Positions 40,401 through 60,467 of a stretch of 64,000 bases of DNA are shown here, in pieces; positions within the stretch are counted from its first letter, which is position 1; every line of letters starts with the position of its first letter. A model generated the notes under the pieces. It did not search any database. It had not been told where the DNA came from and was given only the letters and a program-made list of their open reading frames with translations. The stretch lies in contig NW_004797524.1 in assembly GCF_000002075.1 (NCBI RefSeq), positions 464,741-528,740 on the forward strand, in the 5' to 3' direction. This DNA comes from Aplysia californica (lineage: Eukaryota). A program made the position numbers and the translations under genes.

Positions 40401-43400
40401 CGCGTACATCGCAAGGCTCACCTGCGGGCGCGCAGTGTAAGGGAGAATGACGAATGTCGAATGACTTTGCTACTTTTTAATCTAAACCATTCAAACTTTA
40501 GAAACTGCATTATGAGCACCTCAATCAGATATCTGGTGAATTACAGCTTAAAAGAGTGAAAAATAGAAGAGTTATAAAGTGAAAACAGTTTTTGCCTCTC
40601 CTGAAAAATTTGCCTCGCTACCTGCGCAGGACCATTCGTCGTTTTCCCTTACAACGGCAGCCCTTAAAACCCAATAGGCAGAGCATTTGTACAAGGCAAT
40701 TTTGTCTTTCGTTTGGGTGTAGGCTAACGATACGGTCCATGCTACGAAATGACTTTTTTTTTTAGAGAGAGTGACGAGTGGCTGCCACGATAGTGCACTG
40801 TCTAAGAGTACACATGTCTGTATTTTTTGGGGAGTTTTCAAGACTCTTCTTTACCCGCTTAGCTTTTTTCTTTTTGAGGATAGACATAAAATTTAGAGGT
40901 CCCACCTCACCTCTTAAATAACTTAATGTTGATAGGGGCATTATTATAAGTACCATACTATACCAAAGTTGTCTTGGTAGTCATATTGTTTTGTGTGTGT
41001 TAGCTGTGCAGTGCATTGTTGCAAATTATTTTGATCAAGCCTTGAAGTCTCATAGTTTCAGTTGATAAATATGGACACTTGGTTGCAATTTAAAATGTCT
41101 GCAGGCAACATATAATAGACCTAATAGTTTGCAATATATTGCTTTGAAATATGTGATGAAACACTTTTCTCGTCGAGTATTGCTGTCTTTCTATAAATCC
41201 CTTTAAGTGGGTGGTTGGCCGGTGCTCTGGTGTGGTTTGCTTCTTCTTTCCTATCAAACATCTGTCGTCCTTATCTCCCCTCCTTCTTTTTTATGTTTGT
41301 TACTCTTTTGTAACGCCTCTGATCTTCTGGCGCTCATATGATCTTATGCAGTTGCGAGCGCCGTAAAACCTCTAGATCTGCTACTAAATCCCCCTAATCC
41401 CACCCGCCTCTTAGATAATTTAGATTGTATTGATCTAGGTGTAAAGCATTTATTTTTAAAAAATATTTTTATTCTTTGGTTGTGAGGTGAGCTTCAGAAA
41501 CTCACCTATGTAATATTAAAATTCATGACTTTTGTAAGGTATTACATGTAATAATTTTGCTTTCACAGGTGGTGCGGCCCTTGCAAAATCCTTGGTCCAA
41601 GGCTGGAATCACTCATGTCTAAAGAACAAGGGAAAGTGACTATGGCAAAAGTCGATATCGATGATCATTCAGATCTGGCCATGGAATATGGGGTAAGCAA
41701 TTTCCTTTTCTCCTTTGTGTTCTAGTTCTGTCTTTTTGATGGACAGTCTTTCTTTATGATTTTTTTCTTCCTCATATCCCGCGGCCAAGGTCCTTGCCTT
41801 CAAAATGCCTTTCTCTTGTAGGGAGTTAATCCGATTCAGTAGCTAGCAAGCAATCAAGGTACATTGAGTGAGGTTTATTGAAGATTTTGATACATGCACT
41901 TCAATTCCTGTGTTTAATGCAGTTAAAACTGGTCTAAAGACACAATACTGCCGTATTTAAATCTTATTTTACCTGCTCGTTTGATTCTTCTTCCAAAAAC
42001 AGAGGTGTGATCAGCAGCAACAGTGATTGTCAATTTGTATACCTCTGTCAGAACATGCGTGTTGATATATACAGTCAAACCCCGTTGTACCAAATCCATC
42101 TCAAAATAGATGGTACCAACTTGAACAAGGAGAATAACCCAGTGTATCTTGGAGTACAACTTGACAGCAAGCTCAACCTGAAACAACACACCAACAACCT
42201 TAGGAAGAAAGCTATGAAGAGACTTAATCTCACCAAACGACTAGCCAGTACCAACTGGGGATCAGACAAGAACACCTTAAGAGGCCTCTATTTGGGATAT
42301 ACCAGAGCTGTTTTTGATTATAATCTTGTTTTACAAAAAATCTGCAGTAAAACTACAAAGAACTCAATGGACACCATCCAAAACCAAGCTCTTCGTCTTA
42401 TCTCTGGCGGAATGAGATCCTCATCGACTGTGGCTTGTAAAATCCACACAAATATTGAGCCATTAGAAACTCAAAAAAAACGGGCAGCTTTAAAAGTATA
42501 TGAAAGATCTAAAAGGCTAGAAAATAACCACCCTAATAGAATCCTTGTTGACAAGTGGAAACCTAATCAAAGACTAAAAAATACAAAATCTGTATTTGAC
42601 ACTGTTCTCAATCTCCAAGAAAAACATCACCTCCCTGAAAGACGAGAACCTTTGGAAAGAGTTCCTTCAACTCCCCCACCACATCTCACCATAGCAAAGC
42701 CAGAAATTAGGAAAACACTTTTGGACAAGAGCAATAAAAACACATATCCAGTAGCACTAAAACATTCTGCCCTTGAAACAATTGATTCCTATCCACCAAC
42801 ATGGATCCACTCATACACTGATGGATCTGCCTTTAAGGCAACAATCAATGCTGGATATGGGTCAGTGAGCAACTTGCCCAGTGTTTTAAAAAAGAAAGTC
42901 TTTAATTCCAGCGGGTCCTTCTGCTCCAATTTCATTGCCGAACAACAGGCTATCACCAACACAGCAAACTACATCAACTACTTGTTTGACACTAACCCAC
43001 TTGCTACCACAGACATCGTTATCTTTACAGACAGCCTTTCGACACTAGAGACACTTGAGAGTGGGACTGATGTGAACAAAGATATATTGCACTTGATTTG
43101 GAGTCTACATAATTTGATAAGTAGGCACCACGTCAGAGTAGTCCTACAATGGATTCCTGCCCACACTGGAATACCGGGAAATGAAAGAGCTGATGCTCTG
43201 GCAAAGAAAGGAGCTAGCCTCCCTCAGCCTGAAATTCCTACGAATTACACCACCTGCTGCCAAATGATCAAGTCAAACCTCAAGGAAGAGTGGATGAATG
43301 ATTGGGCCACAGGTACGACAGGAAGGATGATGTATGGCCACATGAATAAACCACTGATCAAAGATCCAATCAATGAGTTGAGGAGGAGAGATCAATCCAT

Positions 43401-46400
43401 AATCTTCCAACTTAGAACCCAACATGTACCTCTCAACCAACATCTCAACTGAATTGGAGTAAAGCAGTTTGCTGCCTGCCCATTATGTGACTACCCCTCA
43501 GAGACAGTGGAACATTATCTGTTCTTCTGTAGAAAACTAACTGATTTAAAGGGATGTTTTCTTCCCAAGCTACCCCACACATCTAATTGCCTCTACTCCT
43601 CAAGACAACAATTAGAACAGACATGCAGCTATTACCGAATGGCATCATGCAGAAGAGTTAATGCTCAGATGCTACTGGATCGCAAACAACAACAACCCCG
43701 TTGTACTGCCAGCCCCGCTTACTGCCCGGTTTTGCCAATGTACAAAAAGAATCCCCTCTATAAACATGGTATTTGCGCCTTTACACTGCTCTCCGCCAAA
43801 TGTCTCAATGGTACAGTCCTTATTAAACTACTGTAAATTTACCCTGTTGTATCGCCAGCAAACTAGCCGCCAGTAATACACAGTACACACTGGGGAACAC
43901 ATGGCAGAGCTGGAGCGCGAGAACGGAACTGAATCGCCACTCTTCCCTGCGGAACGCGATTCACGATTCACTTCAGCGGAATGCGGAATAATATCGCCTT
44001 CCGATTCCCGATTCACTCCCCTGTCACTGTCACCACCTTGTGGCTTGTTTGTAACCTACTGCTGGGTTGTGAGTTGAGTCTTGAGCACAAGAACGGAATG
44101 GAAGACTTATTATGGCTCTCCTTTATTTTACAAAAGATGGTATAGTCCAACCCCCCTATTAAAACATAATGAACGGATTCCAACCAATAGACTAGGAATT
44201 TTATAGAGCCATTGTTTTAGCAAATCATGGGGGGGGGGGGGGTGAATTTATGGGGTCGCTAATTGAAGTCAATAGAGCAGCACAACGAAGAGTGGGGAGG
44301 GGGGGGCGGAGAGGATGGTGGGGCAACAAGGGTGGGACTCGCGAAGAGGCGTTGATATGACACTGTTCTGTTTCATGCATACAACGAGTCCGAGGCTTAG
44401 TGTTCCACGAGCGCTCGCTAACTCGCGGTTCTTTGAATCCGACTGAATCGCGAGTCACCACTCTCAGATTTGGTGAGCAGGATCCAGCTCTAACACACAG
44501 CGCACGTCACATCCCCTGAATGATTGCTTGACACATTTCACACTCACGTTTCTACAAGCTAGGCCTATGTGTAGATCAAACTCTTTTCACCAATTTGCTC
44601 CCTCCCCGCCCATCCCACCTCTCCACCCTTGTCTTGTAAATTTCAGGTAATATGGATAGCTCTTCAGTGATGTAAGCTTAGTTTGTCTTAAGCGAACACA
44701 ATAGGCCTTCCATGTGTAATGTAAAAAAGTAGTTTACAATTATATAAAACATCACTTTATAATTCAGCATCAAATTCACTTCCCGCGTGGTGCGCTGATT
44801 ATGAAAATGCTATTATATTAAAGCTTTGGTCAATATTTAAAAAAATTGGAATTAAAGATATTTTATTTAGTAAGGACTCGCACCCAAGTGTAAGTGGCTG
44901 ATCGAAGGGAGATAATTCATTACTTCATCTAGTGATTGGTAGAAAAATTCCTTTGACGTAGGACAGTAGGTGCTTCATGTATTTAACAGAGGACATGAAA
45001 ACCTCATTGTACCACCTGCCTCGCTGTACCGCCAACTTCATGCTCGTCCCAAGGTATGCCGTGTAATGAGGTTTGGCTGATGATAATAACTTAATAACAG
45101 TATACCGGTACATTTATGAAAGAGTTGCTGTACATTAAATAGGCTAGTATTTGTGATACTTGTCATTGTGGAAGTTGTTGATATTATATTTTATTGTGAT
45201 GTGCCTAGAGCCATCAGGGAGTGGGCATTATAAAAGTGATCTTACGTGTATGATATGGAGCATCTGGGAAACTCTACAAACCAAACTTGATTCAGGTTGA
45301 CTCTTACTGAAGTTTACAAATGTTCAGGTGTTAAATTTCCATGGAACTGCAGGAGTCAGTCTTTGCGAAGATTTTGACATGTTAGGAGTTCATATAAAAA
45401 TCATTGCCATGTCAAAATCATTTGCCATCTTCACCACATTCTGCTCTGGGATTTTTTAGCAATTCTGTGATTTCTGTTTGCCTCTAGCCGAGCATAGTAA
45501 AGTCAGTTCCTGGGTGGTTAGCAGGTGCTCTGGTGTAGTTTGCTCCTTGTCTTTCGTCCATGTCTCTCCTCCATCTATTTTGTGTTTGTGACACCTCTGA
45601 TCTTCAGCACTTATGTGACCTAACTGTTTGGCAAGTGCCGCAAAAATCTCACTAACAAACCAAAAGTCAATGCCTTGCATGCTGCCGTCTGTTTTGTACA
45701 TTTTTAAATACAATATCAATACACTGCGTAATATTAGATCGATCATTGCTTCCAACCAGTGCGTGAAAAACATATTTAGTACGTTTTGAAGGTCTTATAA
45801 GTATGGAAATTGATCGCTTTTAAGGACAAGCGGGCTAGCCCACATTTTGGGGGTTTCCAGAAATCTTGACCTACACCAAAAGTGAACATTGCCCTACCTA
45901 TAGGAGAAGTTTGGTTTCATTGGTGTGTCTATTTGTTTGGTTACAGAGAAAACTCTCCTTTTTTTTTAAAGGAACTAAACAAGGGTCCAAAAACTTTACC
46001 TTTGATTTTCTCAATTTCAGGATAGCCACCTTGCACATAAAAGCGACCAATTAATTGTCATGTTTTGGAAAAACTTGCGCATATTTTCTTTTTTCTGGTA
46101 TTACTTGTCTCAGACTTGCCAGTGCTGAAGAAATCTTATGAACTTTCAAGACCTGATAAAATTATGAATGAGAATGAAGCCCATAAGTCATTTCAGTCTG
46201 TATCCTTACTACAGTTACTGAGTTAGTGTTAGTTCTTGAGCAAGAATTTATTGAAAGCAGAAAAGTGTGTGTAAAGGATTTGGATGTGCCTCCTTGGATA
46301 TTGTTCATCATCTTGACCTGCCACATGGGTACAGTATGTTTTTGGGATTTGAAAAGTTGGTAGCTGTGTATTACATCGTGTGGATGTTTCTATTATTCTG

Positions 46401-46567
46401 ATTTTGTACCGGACTGACCAATAATTATCTTCTTCTTCTTTTTCCATCAGGTGAGGTCTGTACCTACAGTTGTAGCTATCAAGAATGGCAAGATTCAGAA
46501 TCAGTTTGTTGGTGTGATTGATGATGACCAAATCAAGGCATTTATTGAAAAACTTGTCATCTCGTGA
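37496..46567 (+). CDS. TXN2: Mitochondrial thioredoxin (exons 37496-37779, 41569-41692, 46451-46567; 174 aa)
   Basis: Arg/Ser-rich mitochondrial presequence, then VVDFHAE|[13 protein letters not shown]...[16 protein letters not shown]|VRSVPTV...[17 protein letters not shown]. Canonical splice sites. Confidence 0.96.
38611..40660. mobile_element. Unclassified non-autonomous DNA transposon with 30-bp TIRs, containing a nested SINE
   Basis: TIRs CTGCYGTYGTAAGRGAAAACGACGAATGGT at 38611-38640 and inverted at 40631-40660. CCCT flanks both sides, and subterminal GTGTAAGGGAGAACGAC repeats are present. Confidence 0.8.
39254..39611 (-). mobile_element. Full-length tRNA-head SINE (partial copies ~18205-18400, ~21903-22030, ~35000-35290, ~47990-48200, ~57240-57360)
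   Basis: A box TGGCCTAGTGG, B box GGTTCGAATCC, central GTGTCCTTGGGAAAGGCACTTTAC...CACCCAGGTGGGAATGGGTACC, a 3' stem-loop and an (ATT)n tail. Confidence 0.88.
41208..41385 (+). repeat. Abundant ~180-bp dispersed repeat (copies also ~3700-3800, 4765-4930, 5635-5810, 6385-6665, 19137-19290, 22670-22833, 45520-45660, 57780-57865, 58015-58177)
   Basis: GGTGCTCTGGTGTGGTTTGCTCCTTCTTTCCTATCAAACATC...CATATGACCTTA..GTTGC.AG.GCCGTAAAAC recurs in both orientations with simple-repeat tails. Confidence 0.85.
42072..45079. mobile_element. Tigger/pogo-like non-autonomous DNA element interrupted by the LINE
   Basis: Left end TA|CAGTCAAACCCCGTTGTAC continues after the LINE TSD. An imperfect inverted end GTAATGAGGTTTGGCTG ends at 45079. 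Confidence 0.55.
42091..43693 (+). mobile_element. 5'-truncated non-LTR retrotransposon (I/Ingi/Nimb-group): RT C-terminus, RNase H, CCHC finger, (CAA)n tail
   Basis: Motifs [40 protein letters not shown] and CPLC...EHYLFFC. A 13-bp TSD AACCCCGTTGTAC lies at 42078-42090 and 43694-43706. One internal stop at 43450-43452. Confidence 0.93.
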
Positions 46568-49202
46568 TTAGAATGAAAGTGATGCTCTGTATGTTAAATT
46601 TGTCTTCTGTGAATATAAAGTATTAGTTGGATGATTTGGTTTGGTTGACTGGATAATCAGAAAATGTTGTACATGGCTTGTTGCCATGTCTTTCAGACTA
46701 TTTAATCATTGACACACTTTTCTATTTGTTTTTGTATTTGCTTTATGCAGGAGTTCATGTTGCTTCACCCTACAAATAACTTTTTACTTTATAATGTGAA
46801 TTGCAGACTATCTACATAAAGGAATATAATGTGTAATTCAGTCTGAATCTGAAGTGCATATGAAGATTTTAATTTACAGCACTTAAAAACTAGTCTTGGT
46901 ATTATGAAGACTACCCAAGGTAGGGGTTATAAAGATTGACAAGGATACTTTTAGCCTACAGTTGTCAGTTGTCGGTGAACTAATGATAGAGATTGTTGGC
47001 CATTGTAAGCAGAAAGGCTACATATTGTTTTCAAAAGTTAAAGAGAAAAGGGTTTTATTCAGTAAATTGGTCGATGAAATAGCTCACTCTGTTGATATTA
47101 TGGAAACGACTGAGAAAGACTGATTTATTAATGAATAAACTAATCATTTTCATCAAACAACGACTTCATTTTTTTTTTTCCGTTTTAGTTTTAATGCCTT
47201 GTTGGGGTTCTTTAAAAACATTTTTTTTTAGAGTCTTTGTAACTGGAAGTGAGGTCATGATGTCATGGTATGGGCTGAAGGACTTCTGTCGAATGTGTCT
47301 CATTTGTTGTACTGTTACATAATATTATTACTCCGTTGCTAAGGAATGATGATTTCATCCCATTCAAAGCTGCGGGTAGGTGGTGGGGGTCACTGGTAGG
47401 TCCTACTCCTCTACTTTCTCTCTGTTGTTTCTGTCTGTTTGTCTTACTTTTTTCCAGTAGGCCTACCAAATGAAATTGCCATTTTGTGTCCATGTGCATC
47501 TCTTTACCCAAACGCAAAATTCAAACCATTCAAATCCCTCACACTCACCACAGTCTCTATTGAATATACTGAACATGGTGAACCTGCATCTGTGGTGTGA
47601 CAGTGAGGCTTTGTGCTGGCGCACGCAGGAAACCTGAATTCAATTCCAGAGTGGGGAGAAGACTTTTATTGATTTGAGTATCTTAGTCTTTCTGCTGGGA
47701 TGTTTTTTCCCTCTCAGTCCAGGTTGGCCCAGACAGGCTATGTTCGAAGCTCATCTCCTAATTGATCTAAATTGTATTTTAAGAACAGAGCAATAACACA
47801 AAACCTTGTGTACACATGAAGGAAGGGGGCTCTCATGGTCTGAAGGTTATGGTGTTCGCCTCTCATGCCATAGGTCCCGGGTTCGAAACCTGACAGCGAC
47901 GGAAAATTTTATTGTATAAAATTGTCTCTTTTTCCCTCTGTTCCTGCTCCCAAACGTCCATGTTCTGTCGTCGCCTTCGTCTCCACATTCTAAGCTTCCT
48001 GGGAAGCATACAGTGCAAGCAGCTGATTAAACGCCCACACACTAACTGAAAAGATCTTTCGCTGTCTATTACCATGTTCCCATTCTCACTTGAAATGAAG
48101 TGAGGGAAATTCGTGTAAAGTCATAGCTAAGTGTATTTCCCAAGGACAGGACGGGATACCAACCGACGACCTTACAGTTGCGAGTCCGAGAGCCTAACCA
48201 CAAGGGGGGGGGGGGGATCTTTGAATTATGAACCTATCTAATTAAATTACGGGGTAGGTGGACAGAGCAACTACCGCCCAGTTCAGCAGCCAACATGTCT
48301 TTTGACAATGGTTGGAAGAGATACAATATTATGTTCTTCTTTCAACCATACGAATGGTTTTTGTCTTCTTCCAGCTCTAGTCGTCATTATCAACTGCCAG
48401 ATCTGTGACAAACACTGTTTATCAATATTTAAAAAAATAATACATGTACATGTATCATGGCTCTCCATTCTTTTCTTTGCGAGGGTGTTCTAAAACATAC
48501 ATTAGCCTGATCTTTTTCCGTCACCTATCTGTTATGGCTCTCCAATTAGGTTGCTCGGAGTTCACCAAATGAGATTCGAACAAACCAATAAGAACCTCGA
48601 CCTTTTACATCTAGGTATATCTGTCACTGTTATCTCTGTTCAATGCAGAGACTAGAACCAACAGGCGAGACTACTGTGCCTTATCTGAAACAATCGCTCA
48701 TTACATCACGCCGTCAAAGGCAGTACCGTAAATACGCGTTGGAAGAGGCAGTAATTTCGTCATTCAGCAATATTATAAGTGCTACCAATACAAGTTTATC
48801 AACATAAACTTACTTCAAAAGCTTAAACATAAACTTGAACGAATGGATGATGTGGGGAAGACTAGGACATTATAATTTGTTGTTGGTAATGGTGATATTT
48901 TGTTTGTTTGTTTTAGTCTTGAACTTGAAGCAAAGAAATGACAGGATCGCCGATGTCTGTTGCAGATCTAGTGTTCGACGATGCTGATACTAGTGATACA
49001 TACAGAATTTCAAGTGTATACAGTAATGGCTTCGGCCTTTGCAGTAGTTTACATGTTAGGTACGCCCACCTATGTAACTGCCTCAGACCTAACATTCCGC
49101 ATGGGAGATTGAGAGTCCTGTACCCAGTTTCTGTCTGAATACTGAGACTCACCTATTTACATATTCGAAGATTTGTACAAGTGCAAGACAAAGGATACCA
49201 CC

Positions 49203-51455
49203 ATGATGTATCTGATGGAAGTTTTCCTCATACTAAGCACGGCTCTGATTATGACATCAGCTGTTGGGCCCTTGTGTTTTGAATGTGTGGGCGTGGAGAA
49301 TCCTTACGAGTGTAAAAATATAGTTCGATGCAAAGAGAACCAAATGTGTTTTTCCACGAGGTACATTGACTATCACAACGGGAAGGAGTTCTGGGACCTG
49401 AGCTGTAAAACGGCGTCTTTCTGTATCGCTGTAGGGATTCACACAGGGCGCCGTCGTCGAGACTCTGACTCTGACAATTGGGCTGCACAAAGGATTATAA
49501 GTACCCAGCATGCTCAAGATGAGGCGTTTCAACGACACTCTAGAGAGATTAATGACCACCTTGCTCTCTGCTCCTCATGCTGTCCCGGTGATCACTGCAA
49601 TACCAACGTGTGTCTTACAGGCGTGATCAAACCACCGAAAGGTCTTTCTTGCTACTCTTGTCAGGACGTCAAGGACCCGGCTGACTGCAGACTTGTTGAA
49701 AATTGCAAGTTAGGGGAGAGCTGTGCTGTATGGACAACGCCAAACGGCCTGCTAAGTCTGGGGTGTAAATCCAGCAGTGTGTGTACTGTGGAAGGTAATC
49801 AGATTTTCTACGGGAAACGAGCTCTTGGCGTAAACGCATTTTCTTCACAGCCTTCTCAAACACCGGCAGCTGTTACGGGTAATAGAGGCGTGCGTGCATC
49901 TCGCTATGAAATGCCGAGAACATACGTAACACCGTTTCCCAGCATGAACTTACTGCAAAAGTTCGGTGCCGGTAACTTCCAGCTTAGCGCAGTCGAGCAA
50001 GGCTCTGATGTTTATGACGTCTCCGGATTCCATAGACGATCGGTGAGCTCAGGATGTCGTGCTTGCTGTGACAGCAACTTCTGCGCCCAGCGTTACTGCT
50101 CGCGCGTCACGTCGTTACCCCAGGGCGTGGTCACCGTCACAGCGCCGCCTACTACGACGCCAACGACAACAACAACCACTACCACCACGACAACAACAGC
50201 TGCCCCCACCACCACCACAACAACAGCCGCCCCCACCACTACCACAACAACAACCACTACCACCACAACACCGAAACCATTGTCCGTGAACATCGACCCT
50301 GTCTCTCAGAACGTCACTGAGGGCGACAATACGGCTGTCACTTGCCTCGTTCGTGGACAGCCGCCAATACACGTCACCATCGAGAAGAAAAATTCCGGAA
50401 CATCTCCGACTGTCTTCTGTGATGAGCAAATATTGGTAGATCGGAAAAATATTTCATGCAGATTATCTCAGGTGCCGTTATCACTTTCAGGAAGTATGCA
50501 GTGCAAGGCAACTAATGCGTTTGAGAGTACTTTTTCAACAGCTCAGCTGTTTGTCAAAGAACGTATAATTCCTTTCTCAGTGACACAGAAACCGACGGAT
50601 ACGGACTTGACTCCTGGTATTACCACAGAAATCTTCTGCGGTGTCCGCGGCAAACCGACTGCCCATTACACATGGCTGAGGAACGTGTCCGGAGTTCTTA
50701 ACAAAGTGGTCAACGGCAGTGCAGTGTCCAGTTACTACGACACACGTACTGATGCAGCAGTACTGGCAGTCACTGGAAAAAGCTCGGCCGCTGATGGCGT
50801 CTATACGTGCAGAGCTAAGAACACGCACGAGACTATGGATTTCATGTTCACGCTAAAAACACTGACTGATGTGGCAGTAGTTTCTCATACCCCTAGTAGC
50901 ATTACAATAGGGGCACCGCCTTCTCAAACTGAAGTAACCGTATCTTGCGTTTTTCATAGCTATCCTTCCCCGTCAGTGGAGTGGACCTATAAAACAGAGC
51001 GCGGTTTAGTTGCTAAATTGCCTAAACAAAACTTCAGCGCTTCGTCAACTGGAGACAAGACAGAAAGTCAGCTGACCATCAAAGTGGACTTTATCAAAAA
51101 GAACGCTCTGTCGGGAGTCACGTGTTTTGGGGACAACGGGTACGGGAAGGTGAATGCGTCAACTTCCATAACAATTCAAATGCCCGCCAAGATCACCACA
51201 CCTGCTCAGAACTATACAGTCCAACATGGACACAGCCTAGCAATCAACTGCGATGTGACAGGAAACCCTCAGCCAGTGATCAATTGGCAATTTCTTGACG
51301 AGTACGGATTGCCGTCAGTATTGCCAAACATTCGTTTGGAAAACCAAGCAAGGAGACTAATTGCTGATAAAGTAAGTTTCCCAGGGACGATTATCTGCAT
51401 GGCATCTAATTCACTTGGAACAGATGAAGCCAGCTTCGGAATTAAAGTTATATGA
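49203..51455 (+). CDS. Secreted 750-aa protein: signal peptide, two split 12-Cys Ly6/uPAR-like domains, Thr-rich mucin stalk, four Ig-like domains; single coding exon
   Basis: Uninterrupted ORF from ATG 49203 with a hydrophobic leader. Two C-x2-C-x8-C-x5-C-x5-C...C-x2-CC-x4-C-x4-C units, poly-Thr at ~50142-50270, and Ig I-set-type motifs (C-V-G-P...W...G-Y-C-A-N) at ~50278-51452. No TM segment is visible. Confidence 0.9.
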   Translation: MMYLMEVFLILSTALIMTSAVGPLCFECVGVENPYECKNIVRCKENQMCFSTRYIDYHNGKEFWDLSCKTASFCIAVGIHTGRRRRDSDSDNWAAQRIISTQHAQDEAFQRHSREINDHLALCSSCCPGDHCNTNVCLTGVIKPPKGLSCYSCQDVKDPADCRLVENCKLGESCAVWTTPNGLLSLGCKSSSVCTVEGNQIFYGKRALGVNAFSSQPSQTPAAVTGNRGVRASRYEMPRTYVTPFPSMNLLQKFGAGNFQLSAVEQGSDVYDVSGFHRRSVSSGCRACCDSNFCAQRYCSRVTSLPQGVVTVTAPPTTTPTTTTTTTTTTTTAAPTTTTTTAAPTTTTTTTTTTTTPKPLSVNIDPVSQNVTEGDNTAVTCLVRGQPPIHVTIEKKNSGTSPTVFCDEQILVDRKNISCRLSQVPLSLSGSMQCKATNAFESTFSTAQLFVKERIIPFSVTQKPTDTDLTPGITTEIFCGVRGKPTAHYTWLRNVSGVLNKVVNGSAVSSYYDTRTDAAVLAVTGKSSAADGVYTCRAKNTHETMDFMFTLKTLTDVAVVSHTPSSITIGAPPSQTEVTVSCVFHSYPSPSVEWTYKTERGLVAKLPKQNFSASSTGDKTESQLTIKVDFIKKNALSGVTCFGDNGYGKVNASTSITIQMPAKITTPAQNYTVQHGHSLAINCDVTGNPQPVINWQFLDEYGLPSVLPNIRLENQARRLIADKVSFPGTIICMASNSLGTDEASFGIKVI

Positions 51456-52399
51456 TACATGTGTGGAAAAAAGTACGTGCGCGCATTATAGACTTGAATC
51501 ATGGTATTCTAGACCATGCAATGAAAAACTGCAGCTCTTAGTCTTTGCTTTCTCTAAAACTTTAGCTGCGAAATATGAGCACCGTGGGCGTCCAAAGAAG
51601 GGCAAAAACACCACTCTCACTATAGCTTAAGTGGAGTGCGCACATCACCACCCCCACCCCTTCCCCCTTTTCCCACGTCCTTCAAATAGAGTCAAATGGT
51701 GTGCTCTATTATAAAATTATAAACTGGAATTACGTCAGTGTGCAGATCTAGGATATTAAAAGACAAAAGTCTATGGCACGCAACAAGACAACTTCGCCCC
51801 TCCACCCTTCCCTGAATTGACCCATTCGCTGCTTCAGATAATGGGTAGTTGACGTCATAACTAGTCATTACCCTGAAACCTAATTCATCGTACTTGTCAT
51901 CATGTCTTCTGTCAAACACTGTCCTCTCAACAACAAAAATTTTCAAATAATAAAAAAAAAAAGAAGAAAAATACTGTACAGTTTGTTATGTTGCTCTTGA
52001 TAAGAAATAAAGAGTCGTAACGGGGCAGACTGGCCAAATGTTTCATTCCGCTCATCTCAGTACATGTACTTAAATCTATAAAGATGAGTCTGCTAGTAAA
52101 GCACATAAATGTTTAATGGATCACTGTCCTATCTTTTCCCCACACAATTGTTAACGGTTTGTTTACACAGGGAGCATAAATCTTCCTCCTCAAATGCCAG
52201 ATCAGAATCATGACATAATTATATCGGCCATCACGGTTCGCCAGTATGTATACTGTTCGACTGTCCTCGAAATATCACGTTTGCCTTTCATTTGGAACGG
52301 GTATTACGTCAGTGCACACAATCTAAGATATCACGATAAATTCTATGACATATTTTTGTAAGCGTATTACGACGCATGGACATACATGTGTAGGTAGAT

Positions 52400-52900
52400 A
52401 TAAGGTCATAATATGAGCGCACGAAACACACCAGACATTTTCAGTTGATAGGAACTTTTTTATTTTGCCCAGGTGACGGCCGATGCCTACGCTTATTTTA
52501 TCGATTTTGGACCACAAAGTACAAAGTAAAGGGATCTTGAATTAACGTACGCAACTTTCACACGGGACCTCCGATATTTTTTGCCCTTGCCCGAGAAGGC
52601 TAGGTGTAGATCTTTCCTATCACAAGATCAGGGGTGTGGCTTAAGACAGCAGTAAGTGGCCAAGGAGGAGCAGTAGAAAGAGTCAGGAGCAAAGGAGTTG
52701 AGGGAGGGGGTGGGAGGAGCAGGAAGTGGAGACGAAAGCAGAAGACAGAATATTGCTAGTTGCTAGAGAGCAGGAAAGGAGGTGAAAAGTGACACTTACT
52801 TTTTTAGAGTAGAAAATTTTCCGTCGCTATCCGGATTCGAACCCGGGACATATTGAATGAGAGGCGAACACGCCTTAACATCTAGGCCACGAGAGCCCCC
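52400..52900 (-). mobile_element. tRNA(Glu)-like-head SINE, ~500 bp (other copies ~47826-47990 +, ~53640-53945 -)
   Basis: Head GGGGCTCTCGTGGCCTAGATGTTAAGGCG...CTC...GGTTCGAATCC, pyrimidine-rich body, multiple dispersed copies. Confidence 0.78.
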
Positions 52901-55036
52901 GTCCTGGACTTTATTCCAGTGACGAGACATAACGAGCCGGAGCCACCGACTCAGCTGAACGGTGAAATCATCACGCTGGATTGTCGTGTGCATGTGAAGT
53001 AACGTGATTCGAATCCCAAACTTGGGTTGTTTCAGTTTGAGTTCGAAGTTTTCAGGTACCTGGTTGGTCTTTGGAGATGGACGTTAAATTCGGTGGTCCC
53101 ACTTTTTTTTAGAAGACCTTGCAGTGGTAATGATTGTGGAAGTGTGTTTAACCAAACTCTATGGTTTTTATAACCCACAGAATACCTCACCGTTCAAATT
53201 AGAGACTGAGTGCATCTTGAGTCTCAGCATTTGGAGAACGTAAAACCTGCATTGATTGTGTGTTCGTCGATTTTGAAATGGACGAAATAATAAACTAAAG
53301 TCTATTTGTAAGTTCCAACACAAAGTTCTCCTTTTCGTACCCCTACTAGAATCTAGGTCTCAGGGGTAGCGACTGCTCGTTCATCATCCTGCAGTGCAAC
53401 TGATTTTTGCTTTTACGTAATAGGGTTTTTTGTTCGTACTGGCCTTCAGGCAGCCCAATTCCATGTGTTCTACATGTATATGATTTTATAGTCACATACT
53501 GACTAGAGTATTTTCAGTTTAAGAAGGAATTAATTTTGAATTTTGACCGGGTAGCGGCCGAAGCTTACTTGTTGTACATTGACATGCATCGATTTTAGGA
53601 TCGTCAAGGGTCTTTAAGTTTAATAAGCTCACTTGCACATGGAACCTCCAAGATTATTCGCCTTTATAAGTTTATCCGAGAAGGCTGGGTGCTCGATCTT
53701 ACTTACCCTAAGACCAGGGGTGTGGCTGGAGGACAGCAGCAAGAAAAAGCTAGGACTAGTATGAGTAGCAGTAGAATTTAGAAAGGGTAAGGAGTAGAGG
53801 AGCCCAAAAGTGGGGTTGGGGGAGAAAGTGGAGATGTCAGCAGATGACAACATGAGTGACTAAAAAACAGAAAAGGAGGTTTTTAGGACGAACATTTTTT
53901 GTCGCTGTCAGGGTTCGAAAACAGGACCCTTTGAACGAGAGGCTCCTAGCACAAAAGTTTATAAATGTTCTTAGAAGAGTATTATAATTTGTAGATAGTA
54001 GGACTGCTACAAAGTCAAGACATGGCAGTTTAAGAGAAAATCATATGTTAGTTGTTTCGTATCACTTTTCAGATCTTACAATGTGAGATAATAGTAATAG
54101 TAGTAATATATAGATTTAATAAGTAAAGTTGCACTGTCACTTCTTAATTTAAGAATAAGAAGATAAGCATTGGATGACCATGTCTCGTTGGACCTATGTT
54201 GGTTGCGAACAAAGAGAAAGAAAAAAAGTCTCCTCATTCGTACAATGTACAAGTCTGTTCAGGACACAACATTTATAGTACATGTATACTATGTACTCAT
54301 GTACAATATGTACTCATGTACAATGAATATTACAGACTAAAGTTACTATTGGTCTAAGTTAAAAAGTCCAGGTCTCTAATTTATTGTCGATGATATCTTC
54401 ATTTCTTCATATTTAATTCCAATTCCTTGCAGAGATTACTTGTTTGAAAGTTTGGGAACAGACTGCTTTCAAAAGGGAAACCCCATGGTTTAAGTTTTAT
54501 GGCCCACATTCCTTGATAGTCGTAGAGTGGGAAATAGGTGTACCAGAAAAAGTGGCACGCTGTCTGTCAAAATCAAAAGAGAGACAACGAAATTGTTTAA
54601 AATTCAAAAACACAAGCTGCCACCATCGGTGCAGCTGATTTCATGCTAGACTGGTTTGATAAATTTTCATCTATTGCCATCCTCATAGTCTTAACTCACT
54701 CACAAATTAAATTAAAGGTTCTCTCTCAAAGATAAATTTGACGTATCGAAAAGGGTGTGTTATACTCTTCCTTTTCCTTCACTTTACCCAATACAGGGTC
54801 TGTTTCAAGTTAATCACATCCCCTTTTCTTGTGTAGGGTCTTCTGAGTACTCAGTATTTTTCCTTTCATTTTGCCACTCTAAATGCACATATTCTTCATA
54901 GTTTCATAGCCAGAGTTCTTTCAAAAGCCTCGTAGCACATGTACTTCCTCCAATCCTTATCCTGTTTCCACAGTGTTGGCATCAACACTGATTTTACAAA
55001 ACACTGAGTGAGAGGTTTGCTTTTTATTTCCCGATA

Positions 55037-55220
55037 AATCTGTCTCCGCGGTTTTAGGCAAAACAAATTCTGAAATTATGCAAACAGCCCAAAAATGTGA
55101 AATTATGCGATTCTGTTAATTATAACCAAGGACGATAAAGGAAAATAATCAGAAATTATGCAAAAAATTATCAAATTTTGCTATATTATGCGGAGTGCAT
55201 AAAACACCGGGGACAGATTA
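55037..55220. mobile_element. Short MITE-like element
   Basis: AATCTGTCTCCGCGGTTTTAGGCA versus inverted TGCATAAAACACCGGGGACAGATT, with internal AAATTATGC repeats. Confidence 0.5.
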
Positions 55221-56295
55221 ATGAATGTTCAAGAAAATGTAGCACATTTTAGCTATCCTTTTCAATCTTTCTCTTGGAACATCTCAGAACAGCCGTGAAA
55301 TATTTGATTACTTTTATTTAACCATCACTTCACTGCACTGTTACAAATAATACAAAACCTCTAGTCCTCAACATAAAATCCCAAATACAGTCCACGCCGG
55401 CATAAAGCACATTTCGGACTCGAGCACGCTAAACGGCTCTTACCGAATGCGCCTTTAAGCATGGTAACTTCAGCTTCGGGCACGCTTCATTTATAAGACA
55501 GTCAATACTTTCATGATGACCCATCAAAGTTTGAACAGTCTACACCGCAGCAGTGAGTGTGTTAAGAGAAACAAAAACAGCGCAAGTGATGGACACACAC
55601 ACACATGCGCGGCAAGGAAGTCAGAGAGATGCACACAGCCGTGCGTGTGGACATGGTATCTCACCTAGGGCAAAGCTACGCTCAGACAAAAAAAAATACA
55701 AAGAGAGTCGGGGAGATGAGTAAAGGAGGCAGGCTGTGATTTCACCTTATTGCCCCTCGTCATCCGATAATCCTGAATTGATATCATGCGCAAGATGGGA
55801 TCAAAGACCGTGTTTGGGGGATGAAAGCAGTGGTATGAATGTGGTACAGTGGGCAGTGGTACGCACAGGTAGTGTGTAGGCCTTGTGTGCTGTATCGTGA
55901 CTGGCTGTCTAAATTAAGGTTTTATTTCCTATTCAACCACAAAACAAAACAAACAAACAAATGAAAACTGCCAAGGCTGGTAAAAATTACAGTGCACACT
56001 TTTGTGGGACCACCATAGGCCTACTTACAAAGGGAAACAGGACAGGAAATTTTCTACATGAAAATCTCTGGATTATATCTACTTCGCACTCAAGCACGTT
56101 TCGGCATTAAGCACGCTTATGCTTTCTCCCGATGACCGTGCTAAAAGCCGGCCTGGACTGTAATTGCCCCGCACCGCAGACATGTAGAACAGACCAAATC
56201 TGCATCCATTTGTACAAATTAAATCACAAAAGAAGAGACAGAAACAAAAACAAACAAAAGCCTTAAATCGATTATGTTCCAACACTATACTTTAT

Positions 56296-59200
56296 TTACT
56301 TCTTCTTTTTCAACTTCCTTTTCCCTTTGCCCTTTTTCTTTGTCTGCAACTTCTGTTTCAACATCTGTTTCTTTTTGAGTTTCTTGACTTGCATTTTCTG
56401 GGCAGACAGCTGATTGCTGCAAGCTGCTAGCCTGAAAAAAAGAAATGAACAAGACATGCTTTTTTATTTAATTTTCGAATATAACTGTCTTTACATACCC
56501 AGCAACACAACTTACAATATCAACAAGGCCAAGGAGGCAAGGTTCCAATCCTGCCAATCATGGCCAACCCCTGCTGAGAGGGATACAACATCCCAGCAGA
56601 AAGATTGCGATACTCGATAAAAATCCTCCTCACTTGGGATTCAAATTCAAATGTTCTGCATGCAACAGAACACAGATCTTTAGAAAGCAGTACTGTGTTG
56701 ACTTGCCGTAACCACTAAGCATTTGTGGTGTAATTGTTACCTGTTTTCAAAAGATGTAAGTTTGATTCTCGAATGACAATTTGTTCTTGGGTATCTCCAC
56801 CCCTCATCATAGGCATAGCAACTGAACTTTTTACATTTGTACCATCACCAACCCCCCCCCCTTCCCCAAAAGGAAAACCGAAAAAAAAAAAAGCAAAACA
56901 AAAACAACCACAAGTAAAAAGTAGATTCCTGTTGGGTTGAAGGCTAGTGCTGCATCACATTGAATATGTGGTAAGGGAAAGAGACTGCTCCTGCTTCACA
57001 TGTTAATGGAGAATGAATTATTGTATACACTATCACAAGCAAAATGATATTGAATCTCTTCACCTCCACTTGAAGTTGAAGCCAATGAGTGAATAATAAA
57101 AAGTAAAGAATATCTTATCTTAAAAAAAAGAAAAATGTGAGATAGCATTCGTTTCACGCTCTACAACACTGTTTGTAGTAATGTTAATTAAGAGGAGGAA
57201 CCTCTGAATCTATGTCCATCTCCGACAGGACTCAGCCAAATCAGAAAATTCGTGTAAAGTGAATTTCCAAGGCCACAATATTGGACCAAGCTGAAGCTCA
57301 AATCCTTGAACCAGAAATGTCACAATTACAAGTCCTGTGGCCTTACCACAAGACCACTGGCAACATCAACTGTGTCTAAATTTTGTTCATAATTATTTGC
57401 AAGCAAACATATTTCAAGGACTGAAATAAGCATTGTACTCTTAGTTCAAGTCTTAGTTTGGGTTCTATTACTGCAATAACTGTTTTTCCCTAATTTGTGT
57501 CAAAATTGTGTGAACTCCATTTCCGGAGCTTACTACTGCTATGTGGCTTCATTGTACACAACTATGTCCATGTAGAGAGCTCCAGACCATATACTATACA
57601 ATTCACAGGTAAAGGAGATCATGTCCTATAGAGAAAAAAACGTATTTGTTGGCACAGGTCTGAGAAAAAACTTTCAGCATTCATCTGAACACCATTCTTT
57701 TTGTTAAAATAACAGGTCTCTTCAATTATAACCAGTCCTATGATACTCAGAGGAGAGCAGTTTTTGTTTTGTTTTAGTAAGCATTTTACAGAGAGAGAAA
57801 AGAACGATAGACGTTGAACAAAAAAGAAAGAACAAACCACACCAGAGCCAGAGCACCCCCCAATCCCGCACAAGGTGAGTAGCAAATAGAAATAATACTA
57901 GCTACACATGAAGAGAGTGAAGTAGTAGCAAGGAATACTCAATATCTTAACGCTGTCACAATACATACAGATTTCATTAGACCACTAGCTAGAAATGAGA
58001 AGAAAGTGTATTAGTTTTAGTAGAGGTTTTTAGGCGCTCGCAACTGCATAAGATCATATGAGCACCAGAAGATTAAAGGGGGTACAAGAGAGTAACAAAC
58101 ATGAAAAAGAAGAAGGGGAGATAAGGACGATAGATGTTTCATTGGAAAGAAGAAGCAAACCACACCAGAGCACCCACACAATGTCCTAATTTCCTACCTC
58201 TTACAGTTGGGCATAGATAACTCAAAACACATAGGGTATTGACATATATATATGTGTGTTTGATACATCCATAAATCGGGTTAACTAACTGACAATGAAT
58301 AATTAAAGATATCAGTTGATGAACGGCAAATTGTACGAGCTATCCATGATTTTCGTGTTCATGTTATCTGTGCCTGACAATATATATATATATATACAAA
58401 ACATATCTCTCTAAGAATGCAACACAGCAAAAGGAACAGAAAATACAAATCACTTACTTCTGTTTTAAGGACTTGTTTTTCACAGGCTTCACAGCCCCCT
58501 CATCTTCTTGATTCTCATTTTCTTCTCCTTCCTCTTCTTCTGGCTTGTTCTGGAAAAAAACCCAACCAGTCACTTAAAGTACATGCAACTGAAAACAATA
58601 CGAAAGCAAAACCATCTGGGCACTGGTAATTCTTTATATAGAACTTATGCACATTTGTTATGAAATCACACCACAGACTAACGCAAAAGAAAACCATTTT
58701 TAAAGGAATTTCCCAGCACAAAATGCAACCCACTGATCATCGATCATCACAAGCATCCCACTTCCAAACGTTCAAAGCTGAACAAAAAATCTATGCTCGT
58801 TTACAAAAAGAAACCTCTATGAAGAGGCATTCTGCACTTAAACCAGGGGCTTTGGGAACTTTTCTGCCAACCCAGGTCTAGGTGGTGTGAGAAGTTGGTC
58901 CTTAGCCTGCCACTAGTGAATCTCTTGTAGTCTTGTGGTTTATCGTTAAGACATGGACTTTGATCTAGGCTGCTTTCTCCTGGCCTTCCTGTATGGCATC
59001 CATCCACTGTACACTTAAACAGGATCCCCACCACCTCCTGCCAGCTGACCATGATATTATGATGTATGGTTGGACAGCACCTCTGCTTAATTAACTACTC
59101 ATAGTCATAGGCCACCAATCATCATATCACTTGACATCTGTGTGGGTGCTCTTTTTCATAGCCTGAAGACTTCAGGGATAAGTCCATGTCAGGTTGACTT

Positions 59201-59881
59201 GTTTAATGAATAATAATGACTAAGGAGTACTGCAGCACTGACATTCCCACATCCTGTGCCTATTACAAGGGTAACTCTATGAAATAAATGATTGTGCCTG
59301 GGTAGTACTATCTGAAATAAAAGTCCTTAAATTCAAAAGTAGATAATAATTTCTAGAAGTAAAAAAATTACACTTTCAACAGAGTAAGGCTGGATGCAAC
59401 TCATGAAGCCTGTCAACTAGTCTCCTTAAATAGTGCCTTTATTTCAACGTTAAAGGCTTTCCAAAGAACATAACACAAGCAGCTTTCACTGAAGTACAAT
59501 GCCTGGTAAAATTAGATTTAGATGTTAGTGATGATACATTTAGTACACTTAACATCATCTGTCATCTCAAGTACGAGTCAAAATAGCTAAAGAGCAAAAC
59601 ATCAAAATCAAACATTAAGAACATTATTCTTCAAGCTTAAAGCACTACCTGTTGGCCAGTGTTAAAACCCAACCGCATGCCGGATTTTCCAACGTAGTCA
59701 ACTTCTCCAATGTCGGCAATGGTCACTGTATGATCCGGGAGGTCAAAAACTGTTGGATCCACCAGATGTTGGATTTCAGGGATGATCACCGCCTCCTGCC
59801 GCAAGCGACTCTTTTGTTGATCTCTGGCCTGTTGTATTGAAAACAAAAGTCAAAAAGAAAATTAAGAAGACCTGGATATTG

Positions 59882-59925
<44 letters not shown>

Positions 59926-60370
59926 AGGGAGGGAGGGAGGGAGAGAGAGAGAGAGAGAGTGAAGGGACGCTATAATTATAATACAGCCATTAACTTGGAC
60001 TTGGACAAGACTATGTTTTTAAAATTCAGAAAAATCAACTGTTTCATGATACAACAACTATATAATGCAAGAACAGTAAGCGTTACAGTGGTAATTAATC
60101 ATAATTCGATTCTCATATCTTTTGACTGTCTCAGATATTACTGTTTTACTTATTTGAGTCACGGACTTCAGTCCTTATTGAAGTCTACTAGTACACAAAT
60201 TTCCCAAGCTTTGAATAAATTCTGCAGATGACCAAAGAAACAGGAGTTTTTGACATCAACATACCTGCTTAAGGAGCTCCTTCCTTTCATCCATGACTTT
60301 TTTGTCATGCTTCTCTCTTGCCAGCTTTCGCCTTTCATTTTTCCGCTTTTGAAAACCTCGTAGATACTCA
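56296..60370 (-). CDS. NOL12: Nucleolar protein 12 (Rrp17/Nop25 family), exons 60370-60265, 59828-59649, 58549-58458, 56431-56296; first exon not located
   Basis: Splices to EYLRGFQKRKNERRK...|...PTVFDLPDHTVTIADIGEVD...|acidic stretch|Lys-rich tail*. Matches the NOL12 motifs EYLTGFHKRK and YDHPNHTVTV. All phases are compatible. Confidence 0.88.
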
Positions 60371-60467
60371 CTGCCGAAAAGGAAACCAAATTTTAATCCA
60401 AGCTGAAAGATAAAACAGACTGTAACTTACAAAATCTAACTAGTTCTCACTCCCAGTTTTACTTTAA

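What the first reader, a model, noticed from the sequence alone, without database searches (positions are those of the whole stretch)
49203..51455. Unusual secreted architecture LU-LU-mucin stalk-Ig x4 with no membrane anchor
Seen: signal peptide, two Cys-rich modules displayed on a ~45-aa Thr stalk, then four Ig domains ending immediately at the stop, with no TM helix or hydrophobic GPI tail. There are many N-x-S/T sites. Ig1 lacks the core Trp (VTIEK) and has an extra Cys pair. Inference: a soluble recognition or effector molecule (immune, adhesive, gamete or venom/mucus). It differs from the known gastropod IgSF-lectin families (FREP/CREP/GREP), which put the Ig domains N-terminal to the lectin domain.
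Basis: partly seen in the sequence, partly recalled or inferred. Interest (0 to 1): 0.7.

Follow-up and report, generated by a model that had tools for sequence, protein, structure and literature searches.

The report
Sea-slug three-finger protein with cut sites
This is a real, transcribed sea-slug gene for a likely secreted, unanchored protein that joins two three-finger domains to four antibody-like domains, a layout already listed for molluscs, and each three-finger domain carries a long insert bracketed by hormone-style cutting signals, so it is likely cut into three disulfide-linked chains.

Summary
The architecture is real: one 750-codon frame with a signal peptide, two Ly6/uPAR (LU) domains, a 45-residue Thr stalk and four Ig domains, and no anchor. 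An RNA run reads through the stop unspliced. Five relatives, two with all four Ig domains, also end at the last Ig strand. It is not unique: 17 of 83 homologues are LU+Ig proteins, and a 2026 survey (PMC13719153) lists molluscan LU proteins with 1-3 Ig domains.

Finger III of each LU domain holds a low-confidence 48- or 90-residue insert that opens with G-RRRR or G-KR and closes at a basic site. Across homologues, 82 of 123 such loops carry KR/RR (shuffles 33±4) and 52 carry G-[KR]R (shuffles 3±2). Best reading: convertases excise the inserts, proinsulin-style, giving three disulfide-linked chains, two of them amidated. The product likely acts as a soluble bridging or recognition protein. Cleavage and ligands are untested. 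The scan already noted these cut sites in oyster and mussel genes; ten paper searches found no description in print.

The parts
49203..51455 (+). Whole ORF, 750 aa (P0001), no intron inside the part covered by RNA contigs
   Evidence: RNA contigs 49290-50126 and 50102-51626, with the Thr repeat skipped by the tool
49203..49262 (+). Predicted signal peptide, residues 1-20 (cleavage TSA|V inferred from the -3,-1 rule)
   Evidence: hydropathy; not covered by the listed RNA contigs, which start at 49290
49263..49613 (+). LU domain 1 (C25-C137; 10 canonical Cys plus one extra pair)
   Evidence: AF2 model; VIA-align to GPIHBP1 Z 8.5, rmsd 3.0, 79 aligned
49425..49568 (+). Finger-III insert 1 (48 aa) with G-RRRR at 49446-49460 and RHSR at 49533-49544; predicted excised peptide
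   Evidence: pLDDT 55-63
49644..50099 (+). LU domain 2 (C150-C299)
   Evidence: VIA-align to TEX101 Z 8.1, rmsd 3.3, 80 aligned; Toxin_TOLIP E 0.0054, below the curated cut-off
49785..50054 (+). Finger-III insert 2 (90 aa) with G-KR at 49812-49820, RASR at 49893-49904 and RR at 50034-50039; predicted excised peptides
   Evidence: pLDDT 43-57
50139..50273 (+). Thr-rich mucin-like stalk (34 Thr in 45 aa); O-glycosylation inferred
50277..50558 (+). Ig1 (I-set; no core Trp; extra C406/C419)
   Evidence: Pfam I-set E 2.7e-8; alignment
50571..50861 (+). Ig2
   Evidence: Pfam Ig_3 best stretch 459-540
50871..51179 (+). Ig3
   Evidence: one of 4 Ig_3 stretches; C582, W594, C641 invariant
51183..51452 (+). 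Ig4, ending at the stop; contains a donor-like GTAAGT at 51372 that the RNA contig reads through
   Evidence: Pfam I-set best stretch 663-749
51456..52011 (+). 3' UTR (transcribed at least to 51876; AATAAA at 51949 and 52006; true end not shown)

Best explanation
The gene encodes a likely secreted, unanchored protein made of two three-finger (LU) domains, a Thr stalk and four Ig domains, whose LU domains are likely cut by furin/prohormone-type convertases that remove a long insert from finger III of each, leaving three disulfide-linked chains that likely work as a soluble two-ended binding (bridging or recognition) protein. Shown: the frame, the domains, transcription through the stop in one run, the basic sites and their enrichment across the family. 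Inferred: secretion; cutting after G-RRRR/RHSR (LU1) and G-KR/RASR/RR (LU2); amidation at the Gly before the first site (established pro-peptide chemistry, recalled); one inter-chain disulfide per domain (each A-chain has 7 Cys; the canonical C7-C8 bond spans the insert, recalled LU pairing). Predicted chains without glycans: 21-81 (7.0 kDa), 115-203 (9.5 kDa), 280-750 (50.2 kDa). Least supported step: the processed LU pair is a docking head held on an O-glycosylated stalk, and the Ig arm binds a second partner in mucus, haemolymph or matrix. Confidence by step: anchorless secreted about 0.9, cleavage about 0.7, bridging/recognition role about 0.35.
For: RNA run X15 (shown to be RNA by a spliced thioredoxin contig) covers 49290-51626 without a joint and 51672-51876. 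Six aligned proteins end within 3 columns of each other at the last Ig strand. AF2 with 51 sequences: pLDDT 89-97 for residues 20-79 and 120-199, 78-92 for 280-299, 43-63 for 80-119 and 200-279; all five basic sites lie in the low-confidence stretches and the outer ones at their borders. Both modules align to whole LU domains across the inserts. In 123 parsed LU domains of 75 relatives, the finger-III loop has KR/RR in 82 (within-loop shuffles 33.4±4.1, maximum 49 in 2000) and G-[KR]R in 52 (3.0±1.6); KR:RK:KK = 93:15:7; fingers I and II have such sites in 2 and 12 domains. Bias control on 27 hits whose best stretch avoids the query's own sites: 25 of 44 domains (shuffles 10.0±2.2); outside the loops 0.38 sites per 100 residues against 4.76 inside. 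First site a median 8 residues after C7, last site a median 7 before CxxCC; 38 of 81 loops have two separate sites. The same LU module heads Ig (17), C-type lectin (9), VWA (4), fibrinogen (3), EGF (2), C1q, SRCR and IgGFc-binding (1 each) proteins among 83 hits.
Against: No protein-level evidence of cleavage, amidation or secretion. 41 of 123 parsed domains have no KR/RR, so cutting is not needed for the fold; own-genome paralogue B has none in LU1. In the closest named relative P0003, LU1 keeps only the distal site, and only LU2 has G-KR; P0004 has KR sites without Gly, so amidation is not conserved in each orthologue. Low pLDDT in the inserts also follows from poor alignment there. Homologues are related, so counts are not independent events; 10 of 83 hits were not parsed by the pattern. 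Three poly(A) runs (X21-X23) show zero depth over 48468-52355 while the thioredoxin 3' end has depth 47-51: expression is low or restricted and the tissue is unknown. No ligand is known for any family member.
Confidence: 0.55

Rival explanations
1. The protein is secreted whole; the inserts are flexible loops and their basic clusters bind anionic glycans or mucins instead of being cut.
For: No direct evidence of cutting; 41 of 123 domains lack KR/RR; insert 1 has a run of four Arg.
Against: KR outnumbers RK and KK 93:15:7 in the loops against 65:34:51 outside them, and Gly precedes the site far above chance. Charge-based binding does not predict that order. Sites sit at both borders of the ordered core.
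Confidence: 0.2
2. It is cut, but the processed LU pair is a soluble ligand trap or receptor modulator (as Argos, uPAR-like or SLURP-like proteins) and not a defence or adhesion bridge.
For: Nearest folds are GPIHBP1, TEX101, CD177, LYPD6B, PSCA, CD59 and TGF-beta-family receptor ectodomains. Argos is a secreted protein of related fold with a 119-residue flexible region inside domain 1 (PMC12514838, section 2.6). One close copy in the genome, no expansion as in immune lectins.
Against: Fold similarity is at 12-28% identity and shows no function; Argos domains have two fingers and Argos is not among the rows; the family's other C-terminal partners are mostly lectin or complement-type domains.
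Confidence: 0.25
3. It is a peptide precursor: the excised peptides are the active products and the LU-Ig part is a carrier.
For: Multiple basic sites release 24-, 28- and 43-residue peptides; P0006 has a repeated KR-bounded unit in the same loop.
Against: Inserts are poorly conserved: 3-8 of 48 and 4-14 of 90 identities against five relatives, whereas the LU A-chains keep 16-24 of 47-54; loop length varies from 7 to 99; the Gly amidation signal sits at the end of the LU A-chain, not of the released peptides.
Confidence: 0.07
4. The open frame is the ectodomain exon of a membrane protein that splices out before the stop.
For: A donor-like GTAAGT at 51372; only one low-depth RNA assembly (depth 6-9) covers the stop and contigs drop rare forms.
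Against: The contig reads through 51372 and the stop; use of that donor would remove C732 and the last strands of Ig4, which are invariant in six proteins; only one hydrophobic 19-codon window of 2.0 or more lies in 51456-55900 and it has no RNA support.
Confidence: 0.05

Closest known systems
Molluscan LU+Ig proteins of the 2026 invertebrate Ly6/uPAR survey (PMC13719153; main text read, figures and supplements not visible)
   Same: LU domains joined to Ig domains in molluscs; the survey also lists LU+C1q, LU+FReD and LU+MAM
   Different: The survey gives one to three Ig domains, this has four plus a Thr stalk; its text has no mention of cleavage, dibasic sites, furin, convertase or propeptide; no function is given
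Ly6/uPAR (LU) proteins GPIHBP1, TEX101, CD177, CD59, LYPD6B
   Same: Fold (Z 7.5-8.5) and the 10-Cys core
   Different: Single-chain domains, mostly GPI-anchored (recalled); no 48-90-residue finger-III insert, no Ig arm; one extra Cys pair here
Proinsulin-type precursors (recalled)
   Same: Works like: a Cys-free connecting peptide between basic sites inside a disulfide-closed domain
   Different: Different fold; processing here is predicted only
Lymnaea molluscan defence molecule (MDM) and insect hemolin (passages of PMC11999971)
   Same: Multi-Ig invertebrate proteins with defence roles; soluble forms (recalled)
   Different: MDM has five C2-like Ig domains; no LU head is described for either; homology not tested
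VIgL family FREP/CREP/GREP (passages of PMC9334734)
   Same: Gastropod proteins with IgSF domains
   Different: No carbohydrate-recognition domain here and the Ig domains are C-terminal
Drosophila Argos (section 2.6 of PMC12514838)
   Same: Secreted, three-finger-related fold, long flexible region inside one domain
   Different: Two-finger domains, no Ig arm; not among the fold matches

Membership tests
Ly6/uPAR (LU) domain | Ten-cysteine three-finger pattern | tested here: met
   C25/28/37/43/49/68/74/126/127/132 and C150/153/162/168/174/188/194/288/289/294, plus one extra pair each; canonical spacing recalled
Ly6/uPAR (LU) domain | Three-finger fold | tested here: met
   AF2 cores pLDDT mostly 89-97; VIA-align Z 8.5 rmsd 3.0 79 aligned and Z 8.1 rmsd 3.3 80 aligned, top 39 rows all LU/three-finger folds; Foldseek best E 6.7e-3, uPAR; Atlas structure row 1 UPAR_LY6
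Ly6/uPAR (LU) domain | C-terminal CC-x(4)-CN motif | tested here: inconclusive
   LU1 has CCPGDHCN; LU2 has Ala in place of Asn
Ly6/uPAR (LU) domain | Pfam CL0117 profile at curated cut-off | tested here: not met
   UPAR_LY6 12.6 bits against 24.8; Toxin_TOLIP 17.9 against 21.2; the inserts split the match, and the short-loop paralogues pass Toxin_TOLIP
Molluscan LU+Ig proteins (PMC13719153) | LU domain(s) plus Ig-like domains in a mollusc | tested here: met
   named relatives in Elysia, Plakobranchus, Haliotis, Dreissena, Pecten, Mytilus, Mya
Molluscan LU+Ig proteins (PMC13719153) | One to three Ig domains, as stated in the survey | tested here: not met
   four Ig_3 stretches; P0003 and P0004 also have four
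Molluscan LU+Ig proteins (PMC13719153) | Homology to the survey's figured accessions | not testable with these tools
   figures and supplements could not be read
Convertase-processed precursor | Signal peptide and KR/RR/RxxR sites in flexible loops | tested here: met
Convertase-processed precursor | Processed chains detected | not testable with these tools
   needs proteomics or expression
VIgL (FREP/CREP/GREP) | IgSF domain paired with a fibrinogen, C-type lectin or galectin domain | tested here: not met
   Pfam finds only Ig families in P0001; the protein ends at Ig4
Hemolin/MDM-type secreted Ig proteins | Ig-only chain | tested here: not met
   LU-LU head and stalk precede the Ig domains
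Hemolin/MDM-type secreted Ig proteins | Horseshoe arrangement of four Ig domains | not tested
   the only whole-protein model was unusable (mean pLDDT 35.7)

The most novel reading that the evidence does not exclude
Molluscs have a widespread class of pro-three-finger domains: finger III carries a proinsulin-like connecting peptide whose removal, often with amidation, switches on a two-chain LU head that is shuffled onto Ig, lectin, VWA, fibrinogen and C1q proteins. This gene, with inserts of 48 and 90 residues bracketed in both domains, is among the clearest test cases.
Probability: 0.4. Interest if true: 0.65.

Novelty: new variant of a known kind. Interest (0 to 1): 0.45.

Why it matters
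The domain layout alone is a four-Ig version of a molluscan type listed in 2026 and is of modest interest. If the cutting is real, the three-finger fold, known as a single chain in toxins, Ly6 proteins and TGF-beta receptors, has a two-chain, precursor-processed form shared by many mollusc secreted proteins. That would give a maturation step for a large unannotated group now mislabelled 'hemicentin', 'roundabout-like' or 'mucin-like', explain why profile searches miss them, and yield a cheap test: three bands of predicted size on a reducing gel.

Tried and rejected
Word-based homologue search with residues 20-305: 481 candidates, none at E<=0.001; the exhaustive search found 83. Single-sequence AF2 of the whole protein: mean pLDDT 35.7, not used. 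Foldseek PDB: no match at E<=0.001. Complex prediction of two copies of the LU-LU part: no verdict. Run search: no RNA holder listed on record; X15 was judged RNA from its spliced thioredoxin contig. Query-independent homologue search with paralogue B gave only 3 proteins, too few for a control. Cuttlefish SP-alpha/beta sex-pheromone precursors as relatives: the peptides printed in PMC3484142 (abstract and passages) do not show the LU cysteine pattern by eye; rejected. Oyster cysteine-rich precursors (PMC8398477, passages and section 2.7): no mention of Ly6/uPAR or three-finger; their sequences are in figures not visible, so Cragi-GSWN and Cragi-FYFY were not compared. PMC9334734 (Aplysia immunome) and PMC10140915 (bivalve C-type lectins): no occurrence of Ly6/uPAR terms in the main text; supplements not read. 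The original Argos structure paper is not held. Ten literature searches (listings only unless named above) listed no paper on convertase-cut LU domains; subscription journals are mostly not covered. Search of earlier scan notes by sequence: nothing. Argos was not among the fold matches, which does not exclude a relation.

Full report
Observation. Window 49203-51455 (+) is one open frame of 750 codons. It has a hydrophobic N-terminus and no later 19-residue window above 0.86, two 12-cysteine modules, a stalk with 34 Thr in 45 residues and four Ig domains (Pfam Ig_3, 4 stretches; nearest solved sequences Robo2, titin and DSCAM, all through the Ig part). Ig1 lacks the core Trp and has an extra Cys pair. 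There are 7 N-glycosylation sequons, no more than composition predicts (7.7).

Setting. The gene lies between a thioredoxin gene on the same strand (exons near 41570-41693 and 46452-46568) and a Nop25/NOL12 gene on the opposite strand. No close copy was found in the genome (counts are lower bounds). Two distant paralogues on contig C420 have LU-LU-Ig-Ig, a Thr/Pro-rich stretch and a further C-terminal region, with no anchor. They match NCBI proteins labelled 'hemicentin-2' and 'mucin-2-like' of Aplysia californica.

Transcription and anchor. Run X15 is RNA: its thioredoxin contig continues into the upstream exon. Its contigs cover 49290-50126, 50102-51626 (Thr repeat skipped by the tool) and 51672-51876 at depth 6-10, with no joint in the frame. 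They read through the donor-like site at 51372 and the stop. Three poly(A) runs whose reads pile at 3' ends have zero depth across the gene while the thioredoxin 3' end has depth 47-51, so expression is low or tissue-restricted. The 5' end is not covered. Reads were laid on 46200-55900 only. Six aligned proteins end within three columns at the last Ig strand, and none of 20 LU+Ig proteins has a window of 1.6 or more after residue 40 (highest 1.59). Some of these may be partial models.

Family. An exhaustive search with the LU-LU part gave 83 proteins. By Pfam at E<=1e-5, 17 carry Ig domains (2 of them with TSP1), 9 C-type lectin, 4 VWA, 3 fibrinogen, 2 EGF, and 1 each C1q, SRCR and IgGFc-binding; one is a peptidase-like protein and probably spurious; the other 44 have LU families only or none. 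Named Ig-bearing relatives come from Elysia, Plakobranchus, Haliotis, Dreissena, Pecten, Mytilus and Mya (19 of the 83 were looked up). P0003 (Elysia chlorotica, RUS90434.1) aligns over 742 columns at 31.5% identity with the same stalk and four Ig domains; P0004 (unnamed) has four Ig domains without the stalk; both hit P0001 better than the two paralogues. Both also lack the Ig1 Trp and keep the extra Cys pair. A 2026 survey reports molluscan LU proteins with one to three Ig domains, and with C1q, fibrinogen-like or MAM domains (PMC13719153; parts 1-3 of 4 read, which is the main text; figures and supplements not readable, so its examples may include a relative of this gene). The layout is therefore a four-Ig variant of a listed type.

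Between the seventh Cys and the CxxCC motif each module has a Cys-free insert of 48 or 90 residues. AF2 on a 51-sequence alignment gives pLDDT 89-97 for residues 20-79 and 120-199, 78-92 for 280-299, and 43-63 for 80-119 and 200-279. Structural alignment fits each module, across its insert, to a whole LU domain (GPIHBP1 Z 8.5, rmsd 3.0, 79 aligned; TEX101 Z 8.1, rmsd 3.3, 80 aligned). The inserts therefore sit in finger III. Insert 1 opens with G-RRRR (82-86) and closes with RHSR (111-114). Insert 2 opens with G-KR (204-206), has RASR (231-234) and closes with RR (278-279).

Is that more than chance? A pattern parsed 123 LU domains in 75 proteins (73 of the 83 hits and the two paralogues; P0001 left out). 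The loop is 7-99 residues long. KR or RR occurs in 82 of 123 (76 of 87 loops of 16 or more residues; 6 of 36 shorter ones) against 33.4±4.1 in 2000 within-loop shuffles (maximum 49). G-[KR]R occurs in 52 against 3.0±1.6. KR:RK:KK is 93:15:7. Fingers I and II carry such sites in 2 and 12 domains. Because the query's own sites could have selected the hits, I counted separately the 27 proteins whose best stretch avoids them: 25 of 44 domains against 10.0±2.2, and G-[KR]R 15 against 0.9. Outside the loops the rate is 0.38 per 100 residues against 4.76 inside. 62 of 73 parsed hits have at least one such loop; 38 of 81 loops have two separate sites. Against this: 41 domains have no site, P0003 LU1 keeps only the distal site, P0004 lacks the Gly, and the proteins are related, so the counts overstate independent events.

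Mechanism. KR and RxxR are the motifs of prohormone convertases and furin, and a Gly before them signals amidation (established knowledge, recalled). Each A-chain has seven Cys, so at least one disulfide must link it to the B-chain; the canonical LU pairing makes this C7-C8 (recalled). Cutting would give chains 21-81 (7.0 kDa), 115-203 (9.5 kDa) and 280-750 (50.2 kDa before glycans) linked in series. The inserts are poorly conserved (3-8 of 48 and 4-14 of 90 identities with five relatives), as expected of connecting peptides and not of hormones. What the mature protein binds is not shown. Because the same head is fused to lectin, C1q, fibrinogen, VWA and SRCR domains, I favour a soluble two-ended binding protein of mucus, haemolymph or matrix, with the cut LU pair as a shared docking head (about 0.35). 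A ligand-trap or receptor-modulator role (about 0.25) is the main rival.

Comparison and novelty. It is an LU-domain protein by Cys pattern and fold, though below Pfam cut-offs because of the inserts. It is not a VIgL (no lectin domain) and not an Ig-only MDM/hemolin type. The survey's text has no occurrence of cleavage, dibasic, furin, convertase or propeptide, and ten searches listed no paper on cut LU domains; the library lacks most subscription journals. Three earlier unchecked notes of this scan reach the same cut-site reading for oyster and mussel genes. I saw them after my own count; they are not independent evidence. Verdict: real gene, known type of layout, plus a family-wide, statistically strong but untested processing signal. 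Interest 0.45.

Noticed in passing
window 49221-49222: Both paralogues have a phase-1 splice acceptor (TTTCAG) 18 codons before the first Cys. This gene has GAAG|TT at the same codon but continues upstream in frame to a Kozak ATG. It has either lost that intron or uses an unseen upstream exon.
   Followed up: partly
window 41570-41693 and 46452-46568 (+), 3' end at 47157: Last two coding exons of a thioredoxin gene; spliced contig and poly(A) site seen in RNA.
   Followed up: partly
window 42055-43452 (+): 465-codon frame with an RNase H domain (E 9.9e-13), likely a fragment of a non-LTR retroelement inside the thioredoxin intron.
   Followed up: no
window 56285-60380 (-): Exons of a Nop25/NOL12 gene (Pfam PF09805 E 3.5e-7) converging on the LU-Ig gene.
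   Followed up: partly
window 55086-55167: Many poly(A)-tailed reads with loose ends lie here in runs X21-X23; likely a repeat transcribed elsewhere.
   Followed up: no
L005:1803-3887 (+) and L006:2849-4816 (-): Two own-genome paralogues about 66 kb apart on C420: LU-LU-Ig-Ig, Thr/Pro stretch, and a C-terminal region with a weak third Ig-like hit and an unassigned Cys-containing tail; short finger-III loops, one with KKR and one with no site.
   Followed up: partly
P0006, second LU domain: A 99-residue finger-III insert built of repeated acidic units each ending in KR, like a neuropeptide precursor inside a three-finger domain.
   Followed up: no
window 50991-51005 and 51288-51311 (Ig3, Ig4): Ig4 has a conserved aromatic-acidic loop after the C strand (FLDEYG; similar in P0003, P0007, P0008), a candidate binding surface; Ig4 is the best conserved Ig domain (36 of 90 with both four-Ig relatives).
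   Followed up: no
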